From: a virus
Virus record (IMG/VR): IMGVR_UViG_3300045988_155520
Location: 32,001 to 96,000 of that record
Reading direction: 5' to 3' (one strand)
Length of the DNA: 64,000 bases
Part shown: positions 9,293 through 53,800 of the stretch, piece after piece
Position numbering within the stretch: position 1 is the stretch's first letter
Layout: the number at the start of each line of letters is the position of its first letter
Translations under genes and position numbers: made by a program
The notes under the pieces: generated by a model
What the model saw: the letters and a program-made list of their open reading frames with translations, nothing else
The model's database searches: none
Told to the model about the DNA's origin: nothing

Positions 9293-9295
9293 AAA

Positions 9296-9315: not shown

Positions 9316-9320
9316 TTTTT

Positions 9321-9785
9321 TTACACAATTTGAATTGTTATTTTTTCACCTTTAGAACTTGCTTTCTTAAGTATCGGGTAAAGTTTCTCAAATGCTTTTT
9401 TGCTTTCTATCACTTTACCAACAACTTTATTATAGCCAACTATAATACAACCATATGAATCATTCTCATCATTACCTGTGTGTATTAAAACACCATCAAA
9501 CCCAGGTACATTTAATAGACGTGGTACTTTACCGTCACACAATGCTTTAAAATATGGTTTCTGACCGAATTTAGTGCTAACTACATTAAGTGTTACATCA
9601 TAAGTACCTGACGGTATAGCTGTCTGTCCATAAACTTTCTTTTTCTTAATTTCGCTTAATGGTGTATTCTGTGTTAAACCTCTATCTTTATCTTCTATTG
9701 TGTCACATACATAAACATCATCAACATACAATTTTCCAATTGTATACTTTTCCTTTTTACCTACTCTTTTTACTAAAATCTTCAT
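9321..9785 (-). CDS. DUF5675-like protein with a YkuD-like His...Ser-x-Gly-Cys motif (possible cell-wall enzyme)
   Basis: GVLIHTGNDENDSYGCIIVG resembles the H...SxGC catalytic motif of L,D-transpeptidase-fold enzymes. The family name is from memory and unverified. Confidence 0.45.
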   Translation of the reverse strand: MKILVKRVGKKEKYTIGKLYVDDVYVCDTIEDKDRGLTQNTPLSEIKKKKVYGQTAIPSGTYDVTLNVVSTKFGQKPYFKALCDGKVPRLLNVPGFDGVLIHTGNDENDSYGCIIVGYNKVVGKVIESKKAFEKLYPILKKASSKGEKITIQIV

Positions 9786-9839
9786 TGTATTTTTTTTATA
9801 ATAAATACTAAATTATTTGTTTAATAAAATTTTTTTTTG

Positions 9840-9847
9840 TATTTTTG
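9840..9847 (+). promoter_or_regulatory. Bacteroidota-type -7 box TATTTTTG
   Basis: ttttgTATTTTTGccaaaa, 23 nt before the ATG at 9871. Confidence 0.5.
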
Positions 9848-9870
9848 CCAAAATTAAAAACGTATATAGT

Positions 9871-10686
9871 ATGATTAAATGTGTTATTCACACCGCAGAT
9901 ATTCACATACGCAATGTGATGCGCCATGAAGAATATTCTGAACAACTTATGAGATTCATTGAGAAAAGTAAAGAAATAGCTTCTAATTACGATAAAGATG
10001 AAGTTAGAATTGTAATAGCTGGTGATTTGGTACATCAGAAAAATAACATCAGTAATGAGTTGTTTAGTTTTACAAGTACATTCATTAGAGCACTTGAAGA
10101 AATTGCTAAAGTTATTGTTATAAGCGGTAATCACGACTTAGTTGTTAATAACATTAATAGAGAAGACACTATGTCCGCTTTATTTACCACAGCATGTTTC
10201 CAAAATACTATTTTTCTTGATAGAGAATTAGATTATTGTAGTGGGGTATATAAAGATGATAATATCTTATGGGCATTATATTCTATATATTCCGATTATT
10301 CAAAACCTGAAATACCCAAAGATGTTAAAGATTTAAAGGTTATTGGTTTGTACCACGGAACTGTAGTTGGCAGTCAAACTAATAGTGGTAGAATTATGGA
10401 AATCGGAAACGATGGTGATATCTTCTCTACATGTGATGCTGTAATGGCTGGACACATCCACATGAGACAAGTTCTAAAGAGGAAGAATACTGAAATTGTC
10501 TACCCTGGTTCATTAATACAGCAGGACTACGGAGAAACAATTAGTAAGCATGGTTTTGCGGTATGGGAAATAGAGAAAATGACACATAAGTTTGTTAATG
10601 TTGATACAGATTATGGTTTCTATAAAATAGAAATTAATAATATACAAGATTTGGATGAAGACAAAGAAACACTGGTTAACCAATAA
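9871..10686 (+). CDS. sbcD: Mre11/SbcD/gp47-like metallophosphoesterase nuclease
   Basis: Start moved to the ATG at 9871 (MIKCVIHTADIHI). Motifs: DIH, AGDLVH, GNHD, GHIH. Confidence 0.85.
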   Translation: MIKCVIHTADIHIRNVMRHEEYSEQLMRFIEKSKEIASNYDKDEVRIVIAGDLVHQKNNISNELFSFTSTFIRALEEIAKVIVISGNHDLVVNNINREDTMSALFTTACFQNTIFLDRELDYCSGVYKDDNILWALYSIYSDYSKPEIPKDVKDLKVIGLYHGTVVGSQTNSGRIMEIGNDGDIFSTCDAVMAGHIHMRQVLKRKNTEIVYPGSLIQQDYGETISKHGFAVWEIEKMTHKFVNVDTDYGFYKIEINNIQDLDEDKETLVNQ

Positions 10687-23955: not shown

Positions 23956-26900
23956 CTAAATAAACTTATCAGTATAAATCTTATAAACAAAACCATTTGG
24001 TGTGGTCATATAAACGAAAAATGGTCTACTCTTAGTTATTTTTTTAACGTCCTTAGTCATTCTAAGCGTTAATACAACATCACCAGAATTAGATTTACTA
24101 TATTCATAATCTAAATGTATAAAATCAGACAATATTGCTGTTACTACAGGCATATTATATTCATCAACAGAATATTCCTCCGTATAATAACGAATATTGA
24201 AATCTAAACCTTCTTTATACATGAGTGAAAGATTTATCTTAGTACTTAAACGTATTACAAGAGTTTCGTCATTTTCAAAATCAAAAGTAACATCAAAATC
24301 TCTTGTATCAATAGGTTCACTGAATGAATAAACCTCAGCACTTCTCGTTATGTTATTTGTATTTGACTCTACGCAATTAAGAGGTGTTACAATGGTAGAT
24401 ACCTTGTTACCGAAGTCATAATCACACACAAACTGTGCTGATAACAAATCTTTATCTGTTAAAAGAAGGCTGGTACCTCCTCCATCACCCTTTAGATACA
24501 TTTTATGAGTTTGATAAAAGTACATAGTCTTATTATCTTTATCTCTAAATAAAGTTAATAATTTTGTCATTGCTTTATTTCTCAATTCATCACGTAATCT
24601 CTGCTTTTTAATAAAATTAGGTATATCAAGACTGTTAATTAATGCGAATTTAGCAACTTCATCATATGTTTCTATCATTTTATTAAGTCCCGCTTTGGAA
24701 GATTTTACACCAGCATAAACACCTTCGTTTACACCAAAAACAAATGGTACCATTGGATAGATATCACTTTCAGAATCTGAAGAAGTTGAGAAACTAAGTG
24801 TAAATTTTTGAGCTCTTAGGCCAGCTCTTCCACCACGTCCATCTGGTACTCTAAATAAGATACTATAGTCATCTTCATTTGTAGAACCTATAACAGGTGT
24901 TACGATATTAGCGAAATTACCCTTAAAAGTACATTCCTCACCTCTTTTTGTAATTGCACTTACTATCGGTGAGTCGTTATTTTCTGTATTCACTTCTGAC
25001 TTTATGTCATATGAGCAACTTGTAAAAGATAAATTAATATCGTTTACTTCGATATCATTTAAAGTGAACTCTCTTTTAGAGGGATAAGATATAGGAAAAC
25101 TTTCATCATTGGTAAAAGTAAAATCATTCGTTTTATCTACTCCATTAATTGAAACTTCGTAGAATCTACGTGTATTTCCATTTGTAGCACCATTCCATTT
25201 TAGATTTCCATATTTATCATAGCTATATTCTAACTTATTATCGTTATCAACAATATTATAATTTTTATCATAATTTAAAACTATACCATTATATATTGTA
25301 CCACATATAAATCCTTTTTGCCAGTCCTTAGAACCGTTTATTAGTCCATCTGAATGATATAAAGACGGAGTTACAAAATAGTATTTATAATCCAATCTTC
25401 TATCCACCGTCATATATCTAAAGTATGGCTTTGAATAATTAGATGGTACCACAGCTAAACCACCATGTGTATTATCACTGCTATCTAAAACATCATTTTG
25501 AACAATATAATTAGTATTAACATTTATTACAGGTACATTATTTATTTGTCCATTAAAAGGATATGACATAGCTGGTATTCTTTGATAAGAATTAAAAGAC
25601 TTACTATTACTACTTTTCTTTATACCTGCATTATTTGTGAACGCAGCTATATAGTTGCCACTATATGCACCGCCACCTAACTTAGGGTTTAACTGACCAG
25701 TGAATTTATCATTACTCTTTCTTATTTCTTTATCATTATAATTACTACTAACAATGTTAGGTAAAGACTTAGCAAACACAATAGAGTATATATTACCCAA
25801 AGCATAATTGTTGATTCTACCATTATCATTTAAGTCCTCATCATCTTCATACATAGGAGATAAAGTTCTTACGGTAGTAGGTTTCTTACCGCCAATTGTT
25901 TCAATTGAAAGAGTTTTTAAACTCTCATCATTGAAATATTGAGTATGTAGTAACTTAAACATATTATTCAACTTATAACTAACCTTATTAAGATTAGTAA
26001 TAGTTGCATCACCTGAAAGATTTATGTAATCTTCCCATTCTAAATTACTTGAAGGGTATAAATATACAGATGGGTCAAATGAATAAATCCACCCATTTTT
26101 ATTATCGTTTGAAATAATAAGAAAACCATTCTTATTCATAGGAAATATACTATCTTCGTAATAGAAATTACTTCTATAACCTGATGCAGTAGTAACTAAC
26201 TCGTGTCTTCCTAAGAGAGTTCTTAATGGAACATCATTTAATAAAACATCAAAAGTTTCTCCATTTTCAATAGTTATTGGTGTCATGGAATATGTATAAC
26301 CAATATGGTCTTCATCTTCTTTTTCTTGTACGTAATTACTGTTACAAGACTGAATTAAACCAATATTATATACATCTGGATAAAACATATTGAAATCAAA
26401 TTCCAAAACGCTATCAATTTTCTCAGATTTATTTACTCCATTCTTATCTACGTAATCAACCGTGTAATCACGTTGTTCAAACGATACATAGGTATTTCCA
26501 GTATTAGATGTTGTTTCTTTATATGAAAGTTCTGCCAGACCACTTCCGTTAACAGGTTCTATCGTTAAATAAACAACCTTTTCTATATTTTCATTTTTAC
26601 TTATGAAGTGGTTTACCCTTATTTCATAACACATTAAATGTGATTTTTCGTTTACCTTAAATGCTTTTTTAACAACATCGGGAATTTCAATTTCAGTTAA
26701 CAATTTGATATTACTTTCACTTGTTAAAACATATTCATCACCATCAATCATTATAGCACTTACTTTTATAGAGCCATTTAAATCGTTACTAATTATATTA
26801 TTTTTACTACTCTCGTTTATTCTTGCAGCTTCTTCTTGCCTTTTATGACTATCGGTAGATGTGGCTTCTGAACTTATGTATCTTCCACCTAATTCCGATG

Positions 26901-29900
26901 CTTCGTAAACTAAGTTGATGCCATCATTTGAAAGTCTAACAGACTTAGTAACAGTACGTCCATTAGCATCCGTGATTTTGATTTTATATAAATTATTCTT
27001 TATCAATGAATCTTTAATAAAACCATTTCCTTTCGCTTTATTTGAGAAAATAGGGGTACCATCATCTTTAACTTCACAACCTATACCGATATACCTATCA
27101 TTCTGCTCTTCTATAATATCACCAACTAAGTTTCCGTAATAATCATATACCTCATATGAATAAGGCATTGCAATATTATTTACGTCAATGATAATGTAAG
27201 CAAAATCTTCTGGTTTTGTAGGACAACTACTTAAAGATTTATATTTCACATCACTACTAAATGGAAATTTCTTGTCACTAAAGCACTCTGCAAAGAATTG
27301 CTTATTAAATTTATCCAATGCTGTACTTCCTGCCTTTGCGCCAAAATAGAAATAAAAAGAGTTATTATACAATGGAAAACTAACTCTACTACTATTTGAT
27401 GAGTAGAAGTGCCACAAAGATGGATTTCCAGAACCATATCTAAACTCCATGTAGGATTTATCAAAATTATCATATTCACCCTGCTTGAATGTATTTCTTC
27501 TAACGAAATTATCAATTGACGTTTGCATTTTTCCATCAAAGTTTACAGGATAAAGATATTTTAATTTATTGAAATAATATCCTGTATTTGAATCCATTAT
27601 ATAGTTTTCTAATTTAGGGACAAAGCCAATATGGTTTAATGTTGCAAACATCGCTCTTGATTCATAATCATCTATTTCTAATTTTGTAATCATACCATCA
27701 GGTCTAAACTCTCCCCATGTGTTTTCGTTTACACCATATTGTACACGATACAACATATCGTTAGAAACGCCTAATTCACACATTCTCTCAGCATTGATAC
27801 AAGATTTTGGAGAAGATGATACACTCTGGCATTCAAGGTCCATAAAAAGTCCACCTTTATATTGTACCTCTCCGTCTTTCTTAGCACCATATCCCCAATC
27901 CATACCAGTTGTAATGTATGAACCAACATCTTCCGCAGCACCGTCATTTATATCTTTTTTGTCTCTTTCGGCATCATCACCTTTAGCTTCTGTGGTAGTT
28001 GCAATAGGTGGTATATTACTCGTAGTAGATGGAAGATATTTAAACAATTGAGGTATACCATGTAAATCATTTTCATCTAAACTTCCAAGTAATATAATAT
28101 CAGTAGCATATAATCTAACGTACTGTAAAGGCGTAGTTACCTCATTTGGCTTATTCACTCTATCTCTTGGAGTACCAGGAGTATAGTAATAAATGTCTAA
28201 ATTATCTTTATTTAAAACATTTTTTATAATACCACTATTTAACCACACTGTGTCACTATTTTTATGCATACGCATACTATATGGACCCTCTAAATGTCTT
28301 AATGTACTTGTAGAAGGAGTCTTCTGAGATTTTATAGATGGATAAGATAACTTACAAGCGTTTGTTAACTTAAGTCTCTTGTAATATGTAGAACATGAAC
28401 AGAACTCATTTTTAGCACGAGAATGGAAAAGACCAAATAAGAACGATTTTTTCTTTCTTTTACGCCATCTCCATAAAGGCATGTACAAAGTTCCATTTAA
28501 CCAATCATTATAGAAATCCATTTTTGCAATCTCGTATTCACCAGCAAGATTCTGCTGGATAGTATCTATCATAGTATGGTTATCTGATTCCTTCTTACAA
28601 TTAGGAATACTATCTGGACATTTAGCCTTATCACAAGCAACGTGTCTACTTTTACCACAATTACAACCTGGATAGTATGCTGTATTTCCTTCACCAGCTA
28701 AACCTGCGCCAAAGGATATACATCCTACTGGAAATAACCATGATAAATCAAAAAGTTTAACTTTTAATATTGGTATTCTTACAATAAGGATATAATCAAT
28801 TAAAGCTACAAGCACTGTATTTATTGCACTAATAACCGCAACAAGTACCGCTATAATAGTACACAATACCATATATGTAAAGTGTAAATCAAATCTTAAC
28901 GTATTAAAAGGCGCTGGATTTTGATTCTTCACCACATTAGTAGCTTTAATACCACTATAATGTTTTGATGTATTACGTCGAGCTGTTTGTATACGTGGTA
29001 TATAATTTTTTACACTATACACCTTATTCCAATACATATCTCTAAAGCAATTATCGGGCGTAGATGAACCGAACTCAAAATATTTATCTAAATCAACACC
29101 GTTTTTTACTGTTGGGATAGTATACTCACTGCCCTCTAAAATTTCGGGATTATTCGGTACTAAATATTTTGCAGTATGTCTTGAGAATCCTTCGTCACCT
29201 GATTCATGTTTACTAAATCTAAAACGTACCCTTGTTCTTGTTGGTATGCCTTTACTTGGATTATTTGTCGGAATAATATTACCATACTCGTCAGTACCAA
29301 TATAGTCAAGATTCATTGGAATTTGATAACAGAATACTCCGTCTGAATCAATCAAACGATTTCCTTGTATTTGTATTTCCTCTGTAAGACCATCGTTGGT
29401 CTTGCGTATCATTTCTATTGTTCCGTCACCAGGAATCAACTGCTCATTATAGCCGTTAAAAATCGCTGGAGTACATCTATGTTCAATAGAGTTATTAGAG
29501 TTGTCACTTACAACAGAACCCATAAATACACAAGTTGGTTCAAACTTATATTGTATTTGAATATCTGCACGTGTTATCGCTACTATACCATTGTCTTTAT
29601 CACCCCAGAATGGATGAACATAAACACTTTTATCTTGAGAAAAAATCTGAACAAGGTTGTCAAGATTGGTACTACTCTTAAACTGAGAAGCATTATCGAA
29701 TTGGGTTATATTATAACCTTTATACTCGAAATCTCTTGGTTTTTGTGATAATATACCAATATCTGACAAATCAATGTCAATATGAATCTGTTGTGTTCCT
29801 ACAGGTACGCCAAATAACATATAGTCACCAGCTTGATTAGTTACCGTAGTATACTTCCAGTATTTATCATAAATCTCAAGTTGTATATCATTATCTAAAA

Positions 29901-30273
29901 GATAAGTTTTATTTGGAAATGTACCAACTACTCTATAGCAATCATTATCACCTTCGTTCGGTAATATATTATAACGTCTTCCTTCTTTATCTCTTGTTTG
30001 TTTTGATGAGTAAGGATATATTGATGCTAATTCGCTGTCTTCACCATCTTCTTTTGGTATAAAGATAGAAACTTTAGCATTTGGTATACCAAAGGCATCA
30101 TTAGCTAATACTCGCCCAACTATAACACCATAGTTAGACGAGTGTATTCTGTATGCATTCTCCTGTGTCATTGACATGGTTAAGACTTCCATCATCTCGA
30201 AGTCTTGCTTCATGTTCACCTGCAATACAGTATCACTATTTATGTTTGTTTTAACTCTATACTTCTTCTCCAT
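23956..30273 (-). CDS. giant baseplate-module protein (2105 aa) with internal hydrophobic segment and Cys cluster
   Basis: The N-terminus has a beta-sandwich-like stretch (GVIVGRVLANDAFGIPNAKVSIFIP). aa 464-499 are almost entirely hydrophobic. They are followed by CNCGKSRHVACDKAKCPDSIPNC. Confidence 0.65.
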   Translation of the reverse strand: MEKKYRVKTNINSDTVLQVNMKQDFEMMEVLTMSMTQENAYRIHSSNYGVIVGRVLANDAFGIPNAKVSIFIPKEDGEDSELASIYPYSSKQTRDKEGRRYNILPNEGDNDCYRVVGTFPNKTYLLDNDIQLEIYDKYWKYTTVTNQAGDYMLFGVPVGTQQIHIDIDLSDIGILSQKPRDFEYKGYNITQFDNASQFKSSTNLDNLVQIFSQDKSVYVHPFWGDKDNGIVAITRADIQIQYKFEPTCVFMGSVVSDNSNNSIEHRCTPAIFNGYNEQLIPGDGTIEMIRKTNDGLTEEIQIQGNRLIDSDGVFCYQIPMNLDYIGTDEYGNIIPTNNPSKGIPTRTRVRFRFSKHESGDEGFSRHTAKYLVPNNPEILEGSEYTIPTVKNGVDLDKYFEFGSSTPDNCFRDMYWNKVYSVKNYIPRIQTARRNTSKHYSGIKATNVVKNQNPAPFNTLRFDLHFTYMVLCTIIAVLVAVISAINTVLVALIDYILIVRIPILKVKLFDLSWLFPVGCISFGAGLAGEGNTAYYPGCNCGKSRHVACDKAKCPDSIPNCKKESDNHTMIDTIQQNLAGEYEIAKMDFYNDWLNGTLYMPLWRWRKRKKKSFLFGLFHSRAKNEFCSCSTYYKRLKLTNACKLSYPSIKSQKTPSTSTLRHLEGPYSMRMHKNSDTVWLNSGIIKNVLNKDNLDIYYYTPGTPRDRVNKPNEVTTPLQYVRLYATDIILLGSLDENDLHGIPQLFKYLPSTTSNIPPIATTTEAKGDDAERDKKDINDGAAEDVGSYITTGMDWGYGAKKDGEVQYKGGLFMDLECQSVSSSPKSCINAERMCELGVSNDMLYRVQYGVNENTWGEFRPDGMITKLEIDDYESRAMFATLNHIGFVPKLENYIMDSNTGYYFNKLKYLYPVNFDGKMQTSIDNFVRRNTFKQGEYDNFDKSYMEFRYGSGNPSLWHFYSSNSSRVSFPLYNNSFYFYFGAKAGSTALDKFNKQFFAECFSDKKFPFSSDVKYKSLSSCPTKPEDFAYIIIDVNNIAMPYSYEVYDYYGNLVGDIIEEQNDRYIGIGCEVKDDGTPIFSNKAKGNGFIKDSLIKNNLYKIKITDANGRTVTKSVRLSNDGINLVYEASELGGRYISSEATSTDSHKRQEEAARINESSKNNIISNDLNGSIKVSAIMIDGDEYVLTSESNIKLLTEIEIPDVVKKAFKVNEKSHLMCYEIRVNHFISKNENIEKVVYLTIEPVNGSGLAELSYKETTSNTGNTYVSFEQRDYTVDYVDKNGVNKSEKIDSVLEFDFNMFYPDVYNIGLIQSCNSNYVQEKEDEDHIGYTYSMTPITIENGETFDVLLNDVPLRTLLGRHELVTTASGYRSNFYYEDSIFPMNKNGFLIISNDNKNGWIYSFDPSVYLYPSSNLEWEDYINLSGDATITNLNKVSYKLNNMFKLLHTQYFNDESLKTLSIETIGGKKPTTVRTLSPMYEDDEDLNDNGRINNYALGNIYSIVFAKSLPNIVSSNYNDKEIRKSNDKFTGQLNPKLGGGAYSGNYIAAFTNNAGIKKSSNSKSFNSYQRIPAMSYPFNGQINNVPVINVNTNYIVQNDVLDSSDNTHGGLAVVPSNYSKPYFRYMTVDRRLDYKYYFVTPSLYHSDGLINGSKDWQKGFICGTIYNGIVLNYDKNYNIVDNDNKLEYSYDKYGNLKWNGATNGNTRRFYEVSINGVDKTNDFTFTNDESFPISYPSKREFTLNDIEVNDINLSFTSCSYDIKSEVNTENNDSPIVSAITKRGEECTFKGNFANIVTPVIGSTNEDDYSILFRVPDGRGGRAGLRAQKFTLSFSTSSDSESDIYPMVPFVFGVNEGVYAGVKSSKAGLNKMIETYDEVAKFALINSLDIPNFIKKQRLRDELRNKAMTKLLTLFRDKDNKTMYFYQTHKMYLKGDGGGTSLLLTDKDLLSAQFVCDYDFGNKVSTIVTPLNCVESNTNNITRSAEVYSFSEPIDTRDFDVTFDFENDETLVIRLSTKINLSLMYKEGLDFNIRYYTEEYSVDEYNMPVVTAILSDFIHLDYEYSKSNSGDVVLTLRMTKDVKKITKSRPFFVYMTTPNGFVYKIYTDKFI

Positions 30274-33638: not shown

Positions 33639-36515
33639 TTAAAACTTCTTTATATGTTTAACTCTATCATCTGATTCTTCTTGTTTGCCTGGATTAAAAG
33701 CAGATTTATAATCACCTGTAAGATATCCAGTTACACGTCTAAGATGAGAGATATGTGTACTACCACAAATAGGACAAACGTCGCCTATATCTCCACAATA
33801 TCCACAATCGTCGCAAGTGTCAATAGGTACATTGATTGCAAAGTATGGGATATCATTATCCATTGCATAATTGACAATAGTTTCAAGAGCCTCTATATTA
33901 TTCTTTGTTGAAGAAGGTAACTCAACATAAGTGATACAACCAGCATTAGAGAAATTAACTAATTGTGCTTCAATGTCAATCTTCTCAAACGGTGTCATCT
34001 CTTCCCAAACAGGAACATGTATAGAATTAGTAAAGTAACACTTGTCATGACGTTTGAACTTAATTCTTCTGTTCTCATCGTACATGATATTACCATGTTC
34101 ATCTTTCTCTGGCAAATTGATATATGTTACATTCTCAACATCACCATACATGTCTTTGAATTTCTTCATCGCTGTATAGCATAGATTCTCAGCAGGAGTG
34201 TAGTATACACCAAAGTTAAGTTTATACTTATTCTTGTATTCAGCTGCTCTCTTGTTGAACAGACCTTCTATCTCCTTTGCAAGAGCCATACCCTCTTCTG
34301 AAACATGATTCTTACCTATCAGTATTTGAAGTGTTTCAGCAAGACCTAACTGACCGATAGCCAATGTTCCATGCTTTAATGCTGAACGTATTCCTTCTTC
34401 TTCCTTATATCCAAGCATTGTGTTATTTTCCCACATAAACTTAGCTGAAGCAGGACTTTGTTTACACATCCACTCGAATCTTTCAAGAAGCATATCCTTA
34501 GATTCACTTATCTTCTTGTCAAGAAGTTTCATAAAGGCTTTTGTTATATCCTCCTTTGTGTATTCAGTGACCTTCAGTGATTCCTTAACCTCCATAGCTA
34601 ATGTTGGCATAATTACAGTAACTGGTGCAAGATTACCACGTCCGTCTTTAATCTGAGGATTCTGACCCTCATCGGCATTAACGTCTTTACCATTATATGT
34701 GCGACAATTGTGAGTTACCGTACCGTCATCCATTAAATAGAGTCTATCACCATCTAACTCAAATCCGTAAAAATCACCTACTTCATCTTCTGTAATTGTT
34801 ATAGTTGAAAGTGTACCATCTTCTTTATAGCCGTTAAATTTAGATTTCATTTCTTCGTTAAGATTCATAAAATCATGAACAGTTATATTGACAGTCATAC
34901 CATATTCTATATCTTTATAAGTTTCGCCACCGACATAAATAAGTGATAAAACATGACCTTCATTTACAACATAAGATTCAGCTCTACTCTGATTAACTTT
35001 AAAAAGTTTATCATTTCCTCTTATCAATGATTCAACAACTCTTGTTTGACCGTTAACACCCATTAACTTATCACCTACCTTAACATCTTGAACCATTTTT
35101 CTTGTTCCGTCTGCCATTACTATTGGTGTGTCTTTTGCATGACATCCCATCGTGGAAGTATAGGTACGTGGGTCATTCTTATCATAACCTTCATTAACAG
35201 ACCAGTCAACATTAACATAATTAGGATATATACGCATAGATGTTGATTTGAGTGCCAACTTGTAAAGGTCATAGTTAGGGTCGCCTTCTTTTCTATTAAT
35301 ACCCTTCATGCACTGGAAGATACTACAAGGGAATATAGCTGTCTTATGGAATTTACCTACACCCTTAATAGAACCTTGTAAAAGAGCTTGAATAACTAAT
35401 CTTCCCTCTGGAAGTGTACAAGTACCATAGTTGATAGATGTAAATGGTAACTGATTACCACTTCTACTTTGTAGTGTGTTTAAGTTGTGGTATAGACCCT
35501 CTACTGCTTGATTGAGTTCATTAAGTGTGTCAAATAAAGCACTTTGATAAAGTTTTGCATCTAACTTATCTTTATTATCAAGTGTAAAATCTTCTTCAGA
35601 TAAACCTGTTTCTTTGAAGAACTCGTTCTTGTAATCTTTGGTAAATTTATCAAGTGATGTTCTTTCTAAACCGTTTTTGTCTTTATAAAATTCTGAAGCA
35701 ATATTGATTATATCTGAATTATAGAATTTATCACTCTGTTTGATATATGCATTTATATAATGCTTCATAAAGCTCTTTCTAAAGAACTTAACCATTGTCC
35801 AATCTAAATGACTACCACTAACACCACCAAACTGCTGTAATGATTGTAACTGGAAAATTACAGCTACTAATTGGAATGCTGTGTTAAGTGAATTTGCAGG
35901 TCTTACATCGGTCTGTCTTGTATTGAACCCATTATTAAGCAAATCATCCAATGGACTGGTTAGACAGTTAGTCATACCTACAGCGTATGAATCAAGGTCG
36001 TGGATATAAATCTCATTGTTTTCATGATTTCTTCTTGCTTTTCTACTCATACAGAAGTCAAGTGCATACTTCTTTGTTACGAGTCTACTTGCTTCACCCA
36101 TTCTTCCACCAAATGAGTATTCATCAACATTTGCATTTTGGTTCTGTACATCTTCTGCCAAAAGTTTCTTCTTTAAACTCTTAGTCAGTTTGCTTTGATT
36201 ATCACGTACCAATTTATGCATATATCTATAGATGATATAAGATTTTGCAACATCCTGATAATCAGATGACATAAGGCATCTTTCTACATTATCCTGTATA
36301 TCTTCAACATCTACAGTTGTTTCACTTTCTTCATTATAAACGTTCTTTAAACATGCTATAATATTTTCAACAGCATTTTTCTTGATATCTTCAAAACTAC
36401 CAGTTTTTGTACTTTCAATATGTTTTCTACAAGAATCAAAAGCACTATCAATGGCTTTTTCTATTTTTCCAAAATGGAATTTTTCTACAGTATTATCTCT
36501 TTTACGAACTAACAT
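33639..36515 (-). CDS. nrdD: anaerobic (class III) ribonucleoside-triphosphate reductase, interrupted by an intein
   Basis: N-terminal ATP-cone-like start (VRKRDNTVEKFHFGKIEKAI). C-terminal Zn site CDDCGYCG...CPICG and glycyl-radical motif RRVTGYL. Intein at aa 458-603. Confidence 0.92.
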   Translation of the reverse strand: MLVRKRDNTVEKFHFGKIEKAIDSAFDSCRKHIESTKTGSFEDIKKNAVENIIACLKNVYNEESETTVDVEDIQDNVERCLMSSDYQDVAKSYIIYRYMHKLVRDNQSKLTKSLKKKLLAEDVQNQNANVDEYSFGGRMGEASRLVTKKYALDFCMSRKARRNHENNEIYIHDLDSYAVGMTNCLTSPLDDLLNNGFNTRQTDVRPANSLNTAFQLVAVIFQLQSLQQFGGVSGSHLDWTMVKFFRKSFMKHYINAYIKQSDKFYNSDIINIASEFYKDKNGLERTSLDKFTKDYKNEFFKETGLSEEDFTLDNKDKLDAKLYQSALFDTLNELNQAVEGLYHNLNTLQSRSGNQLPFTSINYGTCTLPEGRLVIQALLQGSIKGVGKFHKTAIFPCSIFQCMKGINRKEGDPNYDLYKLALKSTSMRIYPNYVNVDWSVNEGYDKNDPRTYTSTMGCHAKDTPIVMADGTRKMVQDVKVGDKLMGVNGQTRVVESLIRGNDKLFKVNQSRAESYVVNEGHVLSLIYVGGETYKDIEYGMTVNITVHDFMNLNEEMKSKFNGYKEDGTLSTITITEDEVGDFYGFELDGDRLYLMDDGTVTHNCRTYNGKDVNADEGQNPQIKDGRGNLAPVTVIMPTLAMEVKESLKVTEYTKEDITKAFMKLLDKKISESKDMLLERFEWMCKQSPASAKFMWENNTMLGYKEEEGIRSALKHGTLAIGQLGLAETLQILIGKNHVSEEGMALAKEIEGLFNKRAAEYKNKYKLNFGVYYTPAENLCYTAMKKFKDMYGDVENVTYINLPEKDEHGNIMYDENRRIKFKRHDKCYFTNSIHVPVWEEMTPFEKIDIEAQLVNFSNAGCITYVELPSSTKNNIEALETIVNYAMDNDIPYFAINVPIDTCDDCGYCGDIGDVCPICGSTHISHLRRVTGYLTGDYKSAFNPGKQEESDDRVKHIKKF
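34707..35144 (-). mobile_element. mini-intein (146 aa) in NrdD
   Basis: ...TSTMG|CHAKDTPIVMADGTRKMVQDVKVGDKLMG...NEGHVLSL...FYGFELDGDRLYLMDDGTVTHN|CRTYNG. I checked the codons at 35144 (Cys1) and 34707 (terminal Asn) against the DNA. Confidence 0.85.
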
Positions 36516-36685: not shown

Positions 36686-38920
36686 TTATCCGTTATTTTC
36701 AAAAACTCGTTTGGCTATACTATTAGCAAAATCTTGTTTTTTCACTTGTTTATCTTTATCCCATTGAGACAAACTATCAACAACACTGACATTATCACAT
36801 GAGATTCTACACGTACCATTATTAAACTCAATACCATCAAAGACTTTACCAGCCTTACCTGCTCGGTTCTTAAGAATTGCTATTGTAGCTTTATTGTCTT
36901 CAATATCTTCAATAGTTCTTGCGATTGACATAACAACGTGTGCGACCTGAATCTTCTTAAATGAACCACCTGCTTTATCCATTGTAACAAGTTCTGCATT
37001 AACAGAATCCTTAGTACCTTGTAGAGGAATCCAGAAAGCCATATCCATTTCACCAGCCATTGCTTCAAATTTTCTCATAGTCTTTCCTTCTTTTTCCCAC
37101 TCACTTTGAGTATTTGCATCTCCTTTGTGTTCAAGACATTCAAAGTAGTCAACTATAACAAGGTCTGGTCTAAAACCATTGTTGATTTGCTTTTTAATAT
37201 AGCGTTCAATATCCCACGCTGTTTTCTCACCACTTGGGAAACGATTTATCCTTAGATTCTTGATGAGTTCAGGATAATCTTCTTTATAATGCGACAACTG
37301 ATGTTTTACACTATCAACATAGTCTGGTTTACTTAAATCTTTTGCTTCTATCTCAGTAATACGAGCCAAATGCTTGCGCTGTATCTGCTTAATTCTATCC
37401 TCGAATACAATTTGTAAGACCTTCTTGCCATTTGCAGCTGCATGACCAGCAATTGCGGTTGTCATTGAAGTATTATGTGTAACAATGAAGTAATCTGTCA
37501 AATAAAGATGAGATTCTGAGTCAACCATGATGCATTGTCCATCACAAATAGAATACGGAGTTACAGAAGTGATGTATCTTCTGCATTCCTCTTTTGACGG
37601 ATATATTACTTTACTTTGTTCTTCTTCTCTACCAAATATTTTAATATCTGTTGAATATATTTTAACAAGAACTTTATATACGTCATTATCGTCTCTTTCA
37701 TAAGTTGTAATTCCACCTAATGAGTTAACCAACAATTCAAAATCATTCAATAACTCTTTGTGACGTGTAGTAAACCATGTTTTACCATCTTCATCTACAT
37801 ATCCACCTCCGTCCATCATTCCATTCAGCAATGAAACACGTACAGGTAGTATATTGTAGAGATACTCATATCTAATTCCTGTTGCTTTAAATTCACCAAC
37901 ATCTTTGAGTATTCTATCACCTTCATTTCCCAAGTATAAACCCATTTCGTAAGGTTTTACAGGTATTTCATGAGGATAAAAATCAACAGGAGAGGTAAGA
38001 GGAATTGAAAACATAGGTTCATTTCCTTTATACAGTCCTTTTCCTAATATTTCATCTAAAGATAGGACGTTGTATTCCCCACCATTTTCACTTACACTCC
38101 ATAAATGTTCCTTACCACACTCTGTAAAACTTCCATCGCTGAATGTAACTTTATAAAATTGCCAATTCTTATGAGGAAATACATTTGTTACCTTATGCGG
38201 AAGACCATCTTCTCCTAACACATCATCACCTACCTTTATATCACCCATATGTTTTACACCATATGGAGTAAACACTTTTGAATGATATGGCTGTACTTTA
38301 CCGAATGAAGAAGGTCCAATAATAACACCAAGTTCTCCTTTTGCAATACCACCTTCCAAAACTTCATCAATCATATCAATACCAGTAGGTATTGTAACAC
38401 GATAATCGTCTGAAAGTGTTTCGTTAAGGTTATCAAAAACACCATATCCCATATCGGTAGCGGTACCAAGAGTCATAGCGTTATTGAAAAGTTCATAAAT
38501 TTCATCGTAATTATCAACTTCTCCATTACTTGCTAACTTCTCTATTTTACGAGCGGTTATTAGCATTTGTTGTTGACGAAAGAACTTTTGTGCTCTTTCT
38601 TGAACGAATTGAGAACCGTCTGAAGGGGTGTTTTTGATTTTATCAACTAAAGCAACATACTCTTCTCTTTGGATATCATTATATGCTTTATCTCTTAAAA
38701 GCATCTCCATTATCTCATAAGATGGGTGTATGTCGTTTTTATCGTAATACTCTTTTAGAAGTCCAACAAATATCTTTAGATGTGGGTCAGTGAACTTATT
38801 CTGCTCGATAATAGGGTTTAATTCACAGAAAAATTCTTTGTCTGCCATAAACTCATGTACAAGTTTATATTGATAAGTTTCACCAAGAAATCCTAAAGTA
38901 GCATCGTTATTATTATTCAT
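36686..38920 (-). CDS. dnaB: replicative DNA helicase (DnaB / T4 gp41 family), interrupted by an intein in the P-loop
   Basis: The exteins give GPSSFGK|TSMTT (Walker A), DLVIVDYFECLE (Walker B) and ILKNRAG. Intein at aa 209-483. Confidence 0.85.
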   Translation of the reverse strand: MNNNNDATLGFLGETYQYKLVHEFMADKEFFCELNPIIEQNKFTDPHLKIFVGLLKEYYDKNDIHPSYEIMEMLLRDKAYNDIQREEYVALVDKIKNTPSDGSQFVQERAQKFFRQQQMLITARKIEKLASNGEVDNYDEIYELFNNAMTLGTATDMGYGVFDNLNETLSDDYRVTIPTGIDMIDEVLEGGIAKGELGVIIGPSSFGKVQPYHSKVFTPYGVKHMGDIKVGDDVLGEDGLPHKVTNVFPHKNWQFYKVTFSDGSFTECGKEHLWSVSENGGEYNVLSLDEILGKGLYKGNEPMFSIPLTSPVDFYPHEIPVKPYEMGLYLGNEGDRILKDVGEFKATGIRYEYLYNILPVRVSLLNGMMDGGGYVDEDGKTWFTTRHKELLNDFELLVNSLGGITTYERDDNDVYKVLVKIYSTDIKIFGREEEQSKVIYPSKEECRRYITSVTPYSICDGQCIMVDSESHLYLTDYFIVTHNTSMTTAIAGHAAANGKKVLQIVFEDRIKQIQRKHLARITEIEAKDLSKPDYVDSVKHQLSHYKEDYPELIKNLRINRFPSGEKTAWDIERYIKKQINNGFRPDLVIVDYFECLEHKGDANTQSEWEKEGKTMRKFEAMAGEMDMAFWIPLQGTKDSVNAELVTMDKAGGSFKKIQVAHVVMSIARTIEDIEDNKATIAILKNRAGKAGKVFDGIEFNNGTCRISCDNVSVVDSLSQWDKDKQVKKQDFANSIAKRVFENNG
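37472..38296 (-). mobile_element. intein (275 aa) with LAGLIDADG-like remnants; candidate class 3
   Basis: K|VQPYHSKVFTPYGVKHMGDIKVGDDVL...GSFTECGKEHLW...GLYLGNEGD...LLNGMMDGGGYVD...QCIMVDSESHLYLTDYFIVTHN|TSMTT. I checked the codons at 38296 (Val1) and 37472 (terminal Asn) against the DNA. Confidence 0.75.
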
Positions 38921-47813: not shown

Positions 47814-50800
47814 TTATCCAATAATAAATTGTTTTAATTTTCTATGTCCGTCACTATTTGGATGTAATCCATCTTTTGCACGTTTAACTTCAAGCCATTG
47901 ATTATCAGAAAGATTTACACAGTTAAAACCATTATCTCTAATTAATTTATCAACTTTTACTCGTGTATTTGAATCCCAAGCATGAATATTATTGTAAGTA
48001 TAGTTAGGTGCATAGACACAACCTACCCAAATAACTTTCTTTCCCTGTAATAGTGCTTTCATTTTCTTTAAACCCTCTACAGTTTGATTAGTATTATTAT
48101 TGTGGATATTAGGTGCATCATTCGTTCCTAAGAATACAATCACAGTATCAACACTATTCAACTTACTCTTCACGCTATCATAATAGAAAGATTTTGGATT
48201 AACTTCAACTCTCTTTCCATTGACATATCTGCGTGGCTGACTAATACCAGCAAATTCTCCAATTGAAATTCCTGGTTCGCAAACGAAGTCTGCATTTTGA
48301 TATAAGCCAGAATTTTTTGCACCAGCTGCAATTGAATCTCCAATTACCAATAACCTCTTTGGTGATACTTGTGTATTATTAGTTGTTGAGGTATTGTTAA
48401 TATAACCTGCATTACCACAAGAGCCTTGATAACGGTATACCTTAACAATGAAACTTCCACTTCTATAAGGTACAACGTTACTTGCTTTTCCCTCTGCAGC
48501 CCATGTACTTCCATCCCACATAGCAACGTGGAAACGCTCTGGTTCATTTCCATTACGTGACGGATTAGGCTTATTAGAAGTCCACAAACAAGAAATATCA
48601 CCAATCTGTAGGTTGACGTGTGTTCCATTTAAGCTTCCATCGGTTGCTTGATTAACACCCTCATAAATTTTGACAAAACCTAATTTCTCAAGAGATTCAG
48701 TCCACTCCCATGGGTATCCATAAGTACCTTTTCCCATGCCCGTTGATTTACTTATTAATCCAGAAGCGATAAGTGCTGCTCTTACGGATTTCGTACACTC
48801 TCCATTTGTTGCTACTTGACCTAATGGCAAACTATTAGATTTTATATATGAGGCAGCTACCTCTACATTCCAATCACATATTTTACCATTTATTATGTTA
48901 CCACCAGTTAGATTGGCTGTTAATGTTTCACAAGCAATAAGTTCCACATTCTTGAACCATGAAGCTTTTACACCATCTGGTCTTGAATTAATCCAATCAG
49001 ACTTGAAATTCTTATTAGCCAAAACTTCAGATGGTTTTCTACCATATTTCTTTAACAATGATAAAAAGAAATCATTAGGTAAAGATTCATTTATTGGATA
49101 ATTTGAATAATTAAAATTATTATTAACTATTTTCAAACCTGTTACAATACGGCAACGTGTTGCGCCACCGCTATTTGTTTGAGATACAGTAACACCAATA
49201 GATATAGGTTTTAAACCAAAAGAATTACCATCTTTCGCATTCCAATATATCTCTGACACATAATCATGATAACCATTTAAAAGTACATCAAATAATTGTG
49301 TCATGTGACTATTTCCTCCATCTGATTGTTTAAAGATTAGATAATTACCTTTTATCTCCTTATTAAATCCACAAGTTAACTTAACATTATAATCTCCAAA
49401 GGTTTTCTGTACGGCATTAAATAATGAACTTGTAAAAGAATCATCATTAGTACTACTTGTAGATGGTTGCACCGTAGTAGTATTACCATTATTGATATAA
49501 TAGTTGTAGTAAGCAACAGCCTTATTCTGTCTATCTCTACGTGCAGCACCACTACTTTGTTCAAAATAAGCATCCCATGCTGCAGCAGCATCAGAAGGAG
49601 TATTTGTAGCTAAAAGTCTTTGTGCAGACTTTGTACTATTCTTTCTATAAGGTCCTGTTAATGAAATAAAGACATATTCTAACTGTTTATCAATATTCAT
49701 TGATTTAGGTATTACTGGTGCTGGACCGCTATTTGGATAAGAAGTACCATTTGGTGAATTGAAAGCCATCTTAGGGTTATCATTATTCATCATCATACTT
49801 AATGCAGATTTATTAAGCATGAATAAACCACCAGAATAATAACCATTCGAGTCTTTAATAACTTTATATGGGTCAAACCCTGGAGATTCAATAGCAATAT
49901 TTCCAACAATACCAGCTGCTTGTGCTACTGATATAGTACCGAACTCTCCACCAATAGTTCTATTCCAGATACTAATAACTTTACTAATCATAGTAGCGGA
50001 TTTCTTACTTTCATCACCAGTCAATTCTACACCTTCTCCGCCAATATCAGTACCAACAGGGTAAATCTTATATTCACAATCATTATCCACGTCAGCAACT
50101 CTATTTGCAGCCGTAAATTCAGAGCCACTTTCAGAAGTATTGTTTGCTAAAAGGAGTGGTGATTTATTCAATCGTGTTTGTACATTAGCCATACGAACAC
50201 CTGTAAAGGTTGTTTGGAATTTTCCTGGTTCTATTTTGTGACTAACTTCCTCTATCAAGTACGACCCTCTAAACATAGGTACATTGTTCAATGTAAAATA
50301 CATTAAAGGCTGTACCCATGCACACCCTAACATGGTAACAGTGCATGAATATGAATTATTTGAATAAATGGTAAATAAATCCTGACCTGTTGATACTATC
50401 TTTTTGTCACCATTTTTACCATCTCCTACGGCAGCTGAGGCAATAGCAAATGTAGCCTGTAATGACTGTTCTGTCATCATAGGGTTTTCCATTCCAATCT
50501 CAATATTGTTAAAGAAACTCTGGTACTGCATTCCATATCCAACACCAAAGGCAGGTATCTTATACCAATTTTTCTTATTAACCTCTGATAAATTTCTTGA
50601 TGTTATAGCTATTGGTGCTAATTGAGGGTTCTTAGATATTTCTTCTGGATTCAAAGAAAAACCATCATCTTCATAATCACCTCTTCCACCTGTGTTTATT
50701 TTACTTGAATGTTCATACGAATATAGAACTACAAAGTCTGGATGCCTTTTAGGTGTACGCATTGAATTAAATGGAACTGGTGTAAACATACTTTCCATAT

Positions 50801-53800
50801 TACGTTTATCACTTAAATCCATAAAATTCTGAACAGATAACATTATACATCTATTTGTAGCAAACATATCTGACATGAAACTTACCAAACTTGATAAATA
50901 GTTGTTCTGGTCAGTTACCATTAGTAATTTGTTAACCATGTCACCAACGTCTACAAATAATTTATCACCTATCTTGTTGTAATAAGAATCAATAAAATAG
51001 AAATTATGTCCGTCTGTTTGTTTATCACTACCTGTTTCATCACTGAAGAATTTATACATTTTCCATTCTTCAAAATTTGATGAAGCAACCCACTTATCAT
51101 AAAGAAGTTTTAAGTAGTTATAAAATGCAATCTTCATGTCATCGGTAGCTTTGTCAGCGGATGGTGCAAAAGACGGTGCGCTAACTGAATCTGAAGTATC
51201 TATTTTTCTTGATACACTATATTCTTTTGCTAAAGCATTCAGGAATGTGTCTAAATAGATTTTAGCCATACCCTCTGTGATGAGCTGGTAATCGTTACCT
51301 ATATTGTTCTGATTTGTTTCAAAATCATTGTCAATAGTAGCACCCTTGATGATTCTTACAGGTAACATCAACTCTTTCATCAGCATATTCATTGATTGTG
51401 ATGTCTCATTGTTGAATAGTCTCAATAAATCATCATAATTAGCAAAAGCCTCTCTATACACATTAACAGTATTACTCTTGAAATTACCTGTAGCTGCATC
51501 CAAATTTATATCATATGGCGCAAATAATTTATTATATTTTGTGTCAGCCCAATTAGTAAACTCTTTAATATAGCGTGCTACCATGGCAGAGTTCATAAAT
51601 TTCAAATGACGTAAGTTACTTAAATATTTATTACTTTCCATCATTGAATTTAAATTCTTAAAATCAAGCCAGCCGTTATTGGATGTGTTTAGATATAATA
51701 TAGCACCTATTTGAAGTATTGCAGAATAAGGAACTATAATCTGTCTCTTTTGTGATATATCACCTAATATTTTGTTAAAATCATACATAGGTAATAAAGA
51801 GTATAGAACCCACGCACATCTTTTTCTAATACTTCTTTCTTCTCTGAAAAAATTTTGAGAGAATATAGAATAATCCATATGTAAACCTAAACGCTTTGAC
51901 CCCTTTCCTGTATTAATACCACAGAATTGAGTTATTGCATAAGTTTCAGGATTAGTACCTATGTTTGTATAATCTGTACCGTTATGTAATCTCTCTAATT
52001 TAACATATTTGGTTGCATAAGTATTTGTATTCTTAACTTTATCATAAAAACGAATGTTCTTTCTATCTTTTTCTTGATAGGGTACATCTACTGCTTTTTG
52101 AACAAGAGGTTCAATTTTGGAATTGTTAGTTCCGAAATAACTACTAAACGTTTCAGGACTATATGACACATTGAATCCATCTACGTTATTAACAAAATCA
52201 GAATATCCCTCTGGTGAAGAACCACTTCCTAAAGATTTCTGAATTATTGTATTAACTCTGTCTATATTTTTATCAAAATAAACAACACATTCGTTAGTAA
52301 CATCATCTGAATTTATAATGCTACTTCCTTTCTTTATTGGTGCAAAATTAGAGATAATTTCATCATACCCCTCACCAAAATCTCCATTATTAGCTATGCT
52401 TACCGCCTCACTAATTGTGTATTTACCTAACGGTGAAAAATATGAATAGCCATTTCCACTATTCGTTAGGAAATTACTATTACTAACCTTGAATATATTA
52501 AGGAAAGGAGAAAAATCACTTCCTACTTTTGTTGCAAGTGGTTGATTTCCCCATGAATTAGATTTGTTAGACTCAGTTACAATTGATAAAACATCATCTG
52601 AATTTATACCACCTTGTTCATTTGCGTTTGATTGTAATAATCTTCTGATTACATTTCCTGGTTGTAAGAAAATATATGTAAAATTCTTAGCTTCAGTTTC
52701 AGCAATAGTTTTAATAGTTTCGTTCTTCAAATCTCGTCCATTTAAACCAAAACCAAGTATTTGAATCATACGCATAAAAACTCTACCTGCAAATTCTCTT
52801 TTGTCATTTACAGGCAATGCATCTTTATAATCACCATAAGGATTAGACTTAGTAATAAAGTCAAAATTGGCTACAGGGAAATGTATTCTTGAATTACCGC
52901 TTTCTAAGATATTATTAGCACCATTAGCTGTTAACACATCATTCTCATCTAAACGTTCTTGAATATGCTGTGCATTAGCAATAATATAAGCTACCTGATT
53001 GATACCATTGAAAATTTCATTAACAAGGTCTGCTTCTCTAAACTTCTTAGAACGTCCAAATTCTCCGACCCAAGAATCTTCTCTTTTTGTAACACCATTT
53101 TCTGTAATATCCTTTGTGAATCTTGGGAATGGTGGTACTATTTTTGTTCTAACAGAAACATCTGGTATATTTATGTTGCTTATACCTAAGTCATTAATGG
53201 TACGCTGTTCGCTCTGTATAGATTCAACAACTTGATACATCAAATACATAAATGTTTCAAAATGAGCCATATAAATCTTTGACATATTAGATATTGTTGG
53301 GTTAAAACCAAGAGCTTGTATTAATACTTTTTGTTTCTCACGTCTAACTTCTTCTTCAATTTCTTCAATATCTTCACTTTCAGCGTTAATACTTTCTTGT
53401 AATACAGAGTAATCACCAAAATTAAAAATAAAAGCATAACTATAGTGTCTTCCATTTTCAAAAGGATTAATCTTCTTACCTGCAAAAGCATTTCTAACCT
53501 CATCAGCAGTTAAACCTCGTACATTGGTAAATTCGCTATTTGTAAATGGTGTACCAAGTCTATTGATAATCTTTACAGGTAAAATATCTGTAAAGTTTTG
53601 AGCTGGAACTGGGTATACTTCACCTGTACTTTCCTCTACTCTGTTAGCTGCTGCTATAAGATTTGTTAGAGAATCAAATATACTAATATTTTCGCCATCT
53701 TTAAGATAAGATATAGTACCAAAATTAGTAACTGACCCACCCTTTATTGCTTCTTCTGATACTAATACGATTACAGATTTGTAAGTAGTACCATCTTCAC

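What the first reader, a model, noticed from the sequence alone, without database searches (positions are those of the whole stretch)
37472..38296. Helicase P-loop split by a 275-aa intein that starts with Val and shows a Trp/Cys/Thr pattern: candidate class 3 intein with a shrunken LAGLIDADG core
The ORF reads GPSSFGK|VQPYHSKVFTPYGVKHMGDIKVGDDVL......QCIMVDSESHLYLTDYFIVTHN|TSMTTAI. Removing aa 209-483 restores a textbook Walker A (GPSSFGKTSMTT), so residue 1 of the insert must be Val, which is not a nucleophile. The usual splicing blocks are present. Block A matches gp41-type helicase inteins. Block B is GSFTECGKEHLW, with Trp two residues after the His (position B:12). Block G is IVTHN followed by Thr(+1), with Thr at G:5. 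Cys463 sits at, or one residue from, the position where class 1 inteins have the block F Asp; this is an alignment by eye. A non-nucleophilic residue 1 plus the W/C/T triplet defines class 3 inteins, first described in a mycobacteriophage DnaB helicase. The middle carries two LAGLIDADG-like motifs, GLYLGNEGD and LLNGMMDGGGYVD. They are only about 38 aa apart instead of about 100, so the homing endonuclease looks truncated or degenerate.
Basis: partly seen in the sequence, partly recalled or inferred. Interest (0 to 1): 0.7.

Follow-up and report, generated by a model that had tools for sequence, protein, structure and literature searches.

The report
Class 3 intein in phage helicase
A jumbo-phage replicative helicase gene is interrupted in its ATP-binding loop by a self-splicing protein insert that uses an internal cysteine instead of its first residue; the call is correct, but this kind of insert is well known and common.

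Summary
ORF 36686..38920 (-) encodes a 744-aa DnaB/gp41-like helicase. Its Walker A loop is split by a 275-aa insert (aa 209-483, window 37472..38296). An intein-less allele found in metagenomes (P0159, 75% identical) reads LGVIIGPSSFGK|TSMTTAIAGHAA, which is exactly the predicted splice product. Residue 1 is therefore Val and +1 is Thr. The insert has every sequence signature of a class 3 intein: His64/Trp66 (B:10/B:12), Cys255 (F:4, protein Cys463), Thr273-His-Asn275 (G:5-7) and Thr+1. These residues align with the experimentally tested residues of the Bethlehem intein and of the MchDnaB1 and MsmDnaB1 structures. In 167 close relatives Cys F:4 is invariant and Trp B:12 is present in 165. Position 1 is mostly Ala, and Val occurs in about 2-3%. 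The LAGLIDADG domain is a dead remnant: the motifs are 40 residues apart against a family median of 97, and both catalytic Asp are replaced. It is nevertheless still under purifying selection. The insertion site (GK|T) is the same as that of mycobacterial DnaBi1. Class 3 inteins number in the thousands. This is a new member of a known kind, of modest interest. Splicing itself is inferred and was not tested.

The parts
36686..38920 (-). Precursor ORF, 744 aa: a DnaB/gp41-like replicative helicase carrying the intein
   Evidence: ORF list. Pfam DnaB_C matches aa 484-693. 1269 helicase homologs at E<=1e-20.
38297..38920 (-). N-extein, aa 1-208, ending ...LGVIIGPSSFGK (first part of Walker A; Lys-1)
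   Evidence: Identical 12-mer in the intein-less allele P0159.
37472..38296 (-). Intein, 275 aa, Val1 to Asn275 (protein aa 209-483)
   Evidence: Boundaries fixed by the intein-less allele. Family and PDB homology. AF2 model with pLDDT 86.5 and HINT plus LAGLIDADG fold matches.
38258..38296 (-). Block A, VQPYHSKVFTPYG; residue 1 is Val, which is not a nucleophile
   Evidence: Family consensus is A-Q-P-L-D-S-K; Val is at position 1 in 4/167 relatives.
38093..38134 (-). Block B, GSFTECGKEHLWSV: His64 (B:10; 38105-38107) and Trp66 (B:12; 38099-38101; protein Trp274)
   Evidence: His in 167/167 and Trp in 165/167 relatives. Aligns with H65/W67 of MchDnaB1, MsmDnaB1 and MP-Be.
37592..37981 (-). Remnant of the LAGLIDADG homing endonuclease (about intein 106-235). 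Half-domain 1 is reduced to a helix plus a hairpin; half-domain 2 is complete.
   Evidence: Pfam LAGLIDADG_3 matches intein 154-221 only. Alignment gaps against full-length relatives P0022, P0002 and P0148. Secondary structure of the AF2 model. dN/dS 0.06-0.15.
37916..37954 (-). LAGLIDADG motif 1 (block C), PYEMGLYLGNEGD; the catalytic Asp is replaced by Asn124
   Evidence: Family consensus is PY-LG-LLGDG; the column has Asp in 126/167 relatives.
37793..37831 (-). LAGLIDADG motif 2 (block E), LLNGMMDGGGYVD; the catalytic Asp is replaced by Gly164
   Evidence: Family consensus is LLxGLMDTDG; the column has Asp in 139/167 relatives.
37493..37543 (-). Block F, DGQCIMVDSESHLYLTD, with Cys255 at F:4 (codon 37532-37534; protein Cys463), the predicted initiating nucleophile
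   Evidence: Cys in 167/167 and 202/202. Aligns with Cys124 of MchDnaB1 and Cys320 of MP-Be.
37469..37492 (-). Block G plus the +1 residue, YFIVTHN|T: Thr273 (G:5), His274, Asn275, and Thr+1 (which is also the Walker A Thr)
   Evidence: Thr 167/167, His 166/167, Asn 167/167; +1 is Thr in 132, Ser in 32 and Cys in 3.
36686..37471 (-). C-extein, aa 484-744 plus stop, starting TSMTTAIAGHAA (rest of the RecA-like ATPase domain)

Best explanation
This is a cis-splicing class 3 intein sitting between the invariant Lys and the Thr of the Walker A loop (GK|T) of a jumbo-phage DnaB/gp41-like helicase. By homology, the mechanism runs as follows. The precursor cannot bind ATP until the insert is removed. 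Cys255 of the intein (block F position 4, protein Cys463), helped by His64 and packed by Trp66, attacks the Lys208-Val209 peptide bond and forms a thioester branch. The N-extein is then passed to the side chain of Thr+1. Asn275 cyclises, assisted by His274 and Thr273, and releases the intein. An O-to-N shift then restores GPSSFGKTSMTT. Residue 1 (Val) takes no part in the chemistry. The LAGLIDADG homing endonuclease that once moved the element has lost most of its first half-domain and both catalytic aspartates. The intein is therefore no longer mobile by its own nuclease and is inherited vertically in a small clade of related phages. What is shown here: the boundaries, the family membership, conservation of the signature residues, the decay of the endonuclease, and purifying selection. 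What is inferred: that the intein splices, and that it does so by the two-branch pathway.
For: The boundaries and Val1 are fixed by the intein-less allele P0159/L004, whose P-loop is identical to the predicted ligated junction. 115 of the 120 nearest helicase homologs lack the insert. Homology to experimentally proven class 3 inteins: MchDnaB1 6rix aligns end to end at E 3e-9; MsmDnaB1 6bs8 matches; the Bethlehem 'DnaB' intein matches at E 1e-16, with H65/W67/C320/T339/N341/T+1 aligned to H64/W66/C255/T273/N275/T+1. Residue numbers were cross-checked against PMC2807308. Family statistics: F:4 Cys 167/167, B:12 Trp 165/167, G:5 Thr 167/167, +1 Thr or Ser 164/167, and position 1 non-nucleophilic in 158/167. 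Position -1 is Lys in 151 of 168 N-terminal matches that have a residue there. The AF2 model has pLDDT 86.5 and pTM 0.83. Among mini-inteins its best structural matches are the two class 3 structures, with TM-scores 0.76-0.79 normalised to the target. The intein is kept in at least five diverged phage lineages: the window and P0155-58, with 79-90% intein identity. Blocks A, B, F and G are essentially unchanged among them. Intein dN/dS is 0.08-0.10. Endonuclease decay is shown.
Against: No splicing assay exists for this protein. Val at position 1 is a minority state (about 2-3% of close relatives), and I could not find it tested in the papers available. Block B position 7 is Gly rather than the Thr, Ser or Asp seen in studied inteins. 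An engineered WCT triplet alone did not make gp41-1 splice (PMC7664689), so the triplet is necessary but is not proof of activity. dS is saturated in the more distant pairs, so only the window-P0155 dN/dS values are reliable.
Confidence: 0.86

Rival explanations
1. It is a dead intein, meaning a non-splicing insertion. On this reading the helicase gene is a pseudogene, or the helicase works with the insert in place, as with the Arthrobacter FB24 Arth_1007 class 3-like pseudo-intein.
For: The homing endonuclease is clearly decayed. A class 3-like intein that does not splice has been documented (PMC3196547). Nothing has been tested biochemically here.
Against: The Arthrobacter case lacks the F:4 Cys, whereas this intein keeps it together with every other catalytic residue. 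The reading frame is intact in five diverged lineages, with intein dN/dS 0.08-0.10 and extein dN/dS 0.02-0.04. The insert splits the Walker A GK|T, so an unspliced protein could hardly hydrolyse ATP (established knowledge; the same argument is made for DnaBi1 in PMC6195587).
Confidence: 0.06
2. It is a class 1 intein with different boundaries, for example starting at Ser214 or another Ser, Thr or Cys, so that a normal N-terminal nucleophile is used.
For: A Ser lies six residues into the insert (VQPYHS).
Against: The intein-less allele has GPSSFGK directly followed by TSMTTAIAGHAA. A start at Ser214 would leave VQPYH inside the P-loop. Relatives at the same site begin AQPL.../VQPN... immediately after GK.
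Confidence: 0.01
3. It splices by a class 2-like route: Thr+1 attacks the Lys-Val bond directly, and Cys463 only plays the structural or activating role that Asp F:4 has in other inteins.
For: [quoted passage not shown] The chemistry has not been measured for this protein.
Against: Class 2 is known only from KlbA inteins, which have Cys+1 and no WCT triplet (PMC2807308). In every class 3 intein tested, Cys F:4 was obligatory and the +1 residue could not substitute for it, even when it was Cys (PMC5222942). This intein lies inside that family.
Confidence: 0.04

Closest known systems
Mycobacterium smegmatis / M. chimaera / M. leprae DnaB-1 (DnaBi1) class 3 inteins (PDB 6bs8, 6rix)
   Same: The host protein family is the same (DnaB-type replicative helicase). 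The insertion point is the same: in the Walker A P-loop, after GK and before the Ser/Thr that doubles as the +1 nucleophile (PMC6195587). They share the WCT triplet, His B:10 and THN|S/T. HMMER aligns them end to end at E 3e-9. They are the best mini-intein fold matches.
   Different: They are about 140-aa mini-inteins with Ala1 and no endonuclease remnant, and they are bacterial. This intein is 275 aa, has Val1 and Gly at B:7 (they have Asp), retains a dead LAGLIDADG remnant, and sits in a phage helicase that is only distantly related to bacterial DnaB.
Mycobacteriophage Bethlehem 'DnaB' intein (MP-Be; in fact in gp11 TerL, aa 141-481), the founding class 3 intein
   Same: BLASTP gives E 1e-16 over the whole length. 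All the mutagenised catalytic residues align. It has a LAGLIDADG domain between blocks B and F, Thr+1, and a phage origin.
   Different: It is 341 aa with an intact and active endonuclease, has Pro1 after Gln-1, and is inserted in a terminase at a non-P-loop site (TerL1-c; PMC5050341).
gp41-1 split intein of cyanophage-like gp41 helicases (PDB 6qaz), class 1
   Same: It is the best PDB sequence match for the N-terminal half (E about 1e-10; blocks A-B are 40-50% identical). It has Thr at G:5 and also sits in a phage gp41-type helicase.
   Different: It has Cys1, Phe at B:12 and Asp at F:4. It is naturally split and uses the class 1 mechanism. Grafting the WCT triplet onto it did not give productive splicing (PMC7664689).
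Class 3 inteins in GK|T P-loops of cultured phages, e.g. Klebsiella phage KP13-16, Pseudomonas phage SL2 (phiKZ-like) and Vibrio phage 501E54-1 helicase
   Same: They show 31-41% identity over the full length. All begin immediately after GK and end THN|T. SL2's intein is also about 274 aa.
   Different: All three start with Ala, and their host proteins are different helicases or ATPases. None of these phage records matches the window at the DNA level.

Membership tests
Intein (HINT-fold protein-splicing element) | In-frame insert whose removal restores a conserved host motif; intein-less alleles exist | tested here: met
   P0159 reads GPSSFGK|TSMTTAIAGHAA, identical to the predicted junction. 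115/120 homologs lack the insert.
Intein (HINT-fold protein-splicing element) | Splicing blocks A, B, F and G with His B:10, a terminal His-Asn and a nucleophilic +1 residue; HINT fold | tested here: met
   His64, His274-Asn275 and Thr+1 are present. The AF2 model has pLDDT 86.5 and matches PI-SceI, TliVMA, MchDnaB1 and others.
Class 3 intein | No Ser, Thr or Cys at intein position 1 | tested here: met
   Position 1 is Val209, fixed by the intein-less allele.
Class 3 intein | Trp at block B position 12 | tested here: met
   Trp66 (protein 274) aligns with W67 of MchDnaB1, MsmDnaB1 and MP-Be. Present in 165/167 relatives.
Class 3 intein | Cys at block F position 4 | tested here: met
   Cys255 (protein 463) aligns with Cys124 of MchDnaB1 and Cys320 of MP-Be. 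Present in 167/167 relatives.
Class 3 intein | Thr at block G position 5, with Ser or Thr (rarely Cys) at +1 | tested here: met
   Thr273 and Thr+1 are present. In relatives the Thr is 167/167 and +1 is T132/S32/C3.
Class 3 intein | Belongs to the single class 3 clade (sequence homology to proven members) | tested here: met
   Significant full-length matches to three biochemically proven members. No formal phylogeny with class 1 outgroups was built.
Class 3 intein | Splicing needs Cys F:4 and passes through a thiol-labile block F branched intermediate | not testable with these tools
   This needs expression, C463A, W274A and N483A mutants, and DTT-induced decay of the branched intermediate.
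LAGLIDADG homing endonuclease (active, double-motif) | Two LAGLIDADG helices, each ending in a catalytic Asp or Glu, about 90-100 residues apart, each followed by an alpha-beta-beta-alpha-beta-beta core | tested here: not met
   The catalytic positions are Asn124 and Gly164. The spacing is 40 against a median of 97. Pfam matches only the second half. The model shows a helix plus a short hairpin for the first half.
Class 1 intein | Cys, Ser or Thr at position 1 and usually Asp at F:4 | tested here: not met
   The intein has Val1 and Cys at F:4.

The most novel reading that the evidence does not exclude
The catalytically dead LAGLIDADG remnant, which is still under clear purifying selection (dN/dS about 0.06-0.15), may have been kept for a new job. 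Together with the extra conserved cysteines (Cys60 at B:6; Cys251 in CDGQC next to the nucleophile Cys255), it could act as a redox or DNA-dependent switch. Such a switch would make helicase maturation, and therefore phage replication, conditional in an anaerobic host. This would be analogous to the oxidative-stress toggle described for mycobacterial DnaBi1.
Probability: 0.08. Interest if true: 0.55.

Novelty: new member of a known kind. Interest (0 to 1): 0.22.

Why it matters
The finding matters mainly for annotation. The true helicase is the 469-aa spliced product, and the 744-aa ORF should be labelled as an intein-containing precursor. The locus is also a tidy natural series for the intein life cycle. 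Intein-less alleles, full-length Val1 relatives with an intact endonuclease (P0022), this half-decayed form, and mini-inteins at the same site (P0004) all occur within one helicase family. A compact class 3 intein from a low-GC phage that tolerates a bulky Val at position 1 could be of minor use for protein engineering. It does not change what is known about splicing mechanisms.

Tried and rejected
Megablast of the gene against 50,697 phage records found nothing, so the phage has no close cultured relative. Its nearest GenBank phage helicases are about 26% identical.

The word-indexed protein search with the intein alone returned only 4 hits. The exhaustive HMMER search was needed to see the family.

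I first looked for the Bethlehem 'DnaB' intein near the annotated DnaB-like gene (record 30-48 kb) and found none. It is in gp11 (TerL) at 7260-9971.

I could not obtain Tori & Perler 2011, nor the supplementary tables of Tori 2010. I therefore could not check whether Val1 has a precedent among curated class 3 inteins. The supplement of PMC7891396 lists triplet frequencies but not position-1 residues.

The Ser214 start and a sequencing-error origin for Val1 are both rejected: Val1 is present in independent assemblies (P0155-58).

A tblastn search of the window with both inteins found no further inteins. Pfam on the four largest ORFs found no Hint domains. No tRNAs were found.

Full report
**What is in the sequence**

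The minus-strand ORF 36686..38920 encodes 744 aa. Pfam finds DnaB_C only from residue 484 onward. It also finds a LAGLIDADG_3 match at 362-429 and a weak Hom_end_hint match at 223-260. One numbering slip: the block B Trp is residue 274, because His is 272.

**Boundaries**

Searching with the conceptually spliced 469-aa helicase gave 1269 homologs at E<=1e-20.
- Of the best 120, 115 are 456-483 aa long and carry an uninterrupted P-loop.
- The closest of these, P0159 (75% identity), reads LGVIIGPSSFGK|TSMTTAIAGHAA. This is identical to the window's N-extein end joined to its C-extein start.
- At the DNA level the two alleles are 74% identical across the exteins and 72/90 identical around the junction.
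- Because Lys-1 differs from Asn275 and Val1 differs from Thr+1, no other register is possible.

The insert therefore begins with Val and is followed by Thr. The Ser214 alternative is excluded.

**Family**

An exhaustive HMMER search of 1.84 billion cluster representatives found 13,628 proteins at E<=1e-3 and 337 at E<=1e-30. From the top 150 proteins I extracted 167 distinct complete inteins and aligned them. The signature columns read as follows:

| Position | Residue counts in 167 relatives |
|---|---|
| B:10 | His 167 |
| B:12 | Trp 165 |
| F:4 | Cys 167 |
| G:5 | Thr 167 |
| G:6 | His 166 |
| G:7 | Asn 167 |
| +1 | Thr 132, Ser 32, Cys 3 |
| 1 | Ala 109, Met 10, Glu 9, Pro 8, Leu 6, Gly 6, Ser 5, Cys 4, Val 4, Gln 3, Asp 2, Phe 1 |

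The residue before the intein is Lys in 151 of 168 N-terminal matches that have a residue there, which is the GK| site. The window has His64, Trp66, Cys255, Thr273, His274, Asn275, Thr+1 and Val1.

**Link to proven class 3 inteins**

- A mini version of the intein, with the endonuclease region replaced by a short linker, aligns end to end with the M. chimaera DnaB-1 class 3 intein (6rix, E 3e-9). In that alignment HQW matches HLW, Cys124 matches Cys255, and THN matches THN. It also matches M. smegmatis DnaB-1 (6bs8).
- The founding class 3 intein, called MP-Be 'DnaB', lies in Bethlehem gp11 (TerL) at aa 141-481. Its residue numbers (His65, Trp67, Lys319-Cys320-Ile321, Thr339, Asn341) match those in PMC2807308.
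- BLASTP of the window intein against MP-Be gives E 1e-16 over the full length, and each of those residues aligns with its counterpart.
- The best PDB sequence hit for the N-terminal half is the class 1 gp41-1 intein (E about 1e-10).
- An AlphaFold2 model built from an 8-sequence alignment is confident (pLDDT 86.5, pTM 0.83).
- Foldseek places that model nearest to endonuclease-containing inteins (PI-SceI, TM 0.63-0.70 on the query). Among mini-inteins it is nearest to the two class 3 structures (TM 0.76-0.79 on the target), ahead of gp41-1 at 0.71.

**Mechanism**

[quoted passage not shown] By homology, the steps here should be:
1. Cys463 attacks the Lys208-Val209 bond.
2. The N-extein is transferred to Thr484.
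3. Asn483 cyclises.
4. An acyl shift restores GPSSFGKTSMTT.

None of this chemistry was observed here. It is inferred from homology.

Two indirect arguments suggest the intein is active.
- The insert splits GK|T, so ATPase function requires its removal.
- The intein is retained, with blocks A, B, F and G essentially unchanged, in the window and in four other diverged lineages: P0155-58, with 79-90% intein identity and 86-98% extein identity.

For the least saturated pair (window versus P0155), dN/dS is 0.079 for the intein and 0.043 for the exteins. Values from the more distant pairs are unreliable, because dS exceeds 1.

**The endonuclease**

The family consensus motifs are PY-LG-LLGDG and LLxGLMDTDG. 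The window has PYEMGLYLGNEGD and LLNGMMDGGGYVD. The two catalytic positions are Asn124 (Asp in 126/167 relatives) and Gly164 (Asp in 139/167). These positions are 40 residues apart, against a family median of 97. Twenty-four of the 167 relatives have spacing under 70, and nearly all of those have also lost one or both Asp.

Alignment with full-length relatives, including the Val1 intein of P0022 (365 aa, GDG and DSDG intact), puts the deletion right after motif 1. In the model, half-domain 1 is only a helix (115-124) plus a short hairpin. Half-domain 2 keeps the usual alpha-beta-beta-alpha-beta-beta order. Pfam matches only the second half.

The remnant still has dN/dS of 0.06-0.15, so it is constrained. 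The most likely reason is that it is needed for folding.

**Context**

The window comes from a large myovirus-like phage. Its neighbours include a baseplate wedge protein, a UvsX-like recombinase, thymidine kinase, a 5'-3' exonuclease and NrdD/NrdG. A 98%-identical helicase lies on a 253,905-bp metagenomic scaffold with the same gene order. No cultured phage is close.

**Comparison with what is known**

- Class 3 inteins were defined in 2009-2010, and 1,701 were counted in NCBI nr in 2020, 82.5% of them with LAGLIDADG motifs (PMC7891396).
- They are noted for sitting in the P-loops of helicases and terminases (PMC2807308). The Lys|Thr position is called the 'classic' P-loop insertion (PMC5050341).
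- Mycobacterial DnaBi1 occupies the homologous P-loop site of DnaB (PMC6195587).
- Cultured phages KP13-16, SL2 and 501E54-1 carry 31-41% identical relatives at GK|T sites, all starting with Ala.

What is specific to this locus is minor: Val at position 1 (2-3% of relatives), Gly at B:7, and an intermediate stage of endonuclease decay.

**Verdict**

This is a new member of a known kind. Interest is low to moderate.

Noticed in passing
window 34707..35144 (-), inside the NrdD ORF 33639..36515: The neighbouring anaerobic ribonucleotide reductase gene carries a second, unrelated intein. It is a 146-aa mini-intein with Cys1 and THN|Cys+1 (TSTMG|CHAKDTP...GTVTHN|CRTYNG), which looks like class 1. 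In the related phage contig L011 the NrdD product is 812 aa, which equals 958 minus 146, so an intein-less allele probably exists.
   Followed up: partly
window 38117..38119 (Cys60 of the intein, block B position 6) and 37544..37546 (Cys251): Cys at B:6 is conserved in 127/167 family members and is also present in gp41-1. The window's clade additionally has CDGQC, which places Cys251 four residues before the nucleophile Cys255. These could be disulfide partners like Cys48 in Msm DnaBi1. This was not tested.
   Followed up: no
window 37592..37981 (-): The catalytically dead LAGLIDADG remnant still evolves under purifying selection (dN/dS 0.06-0.15), only slightly more relaxed than the splicing domain.
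   Followed up: partly
related proteins P0005-P0154: Many proteins in the family search show 4-7 matched stretches, meaning two or three class 3 inteins in one host protein. Lengths reach 2,873 aa.
   Followed up: no
phage records (e.g. NC_042081, NC_019924, NC_048668): RefSeq labels several intein-bearing helicase or terminase genes 'DarB-like antirestriction'. The matching GenBank records call them helicase, terminase or hypothetical protein. The name seems to follow the intein rather than the host protein.
   Followed up: no
window 23956..30273, 47814..54956 and 55309..61287 (-): Three very large ORFs (2105, 2380 and 1992 aa) are present. Only the 2380-aa ORF has Pfam hits, a phage tail lysozyme and a GDSL lipase domain near its C-terminus. 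The other two have no Pfam match at all.
   Followed up: partly
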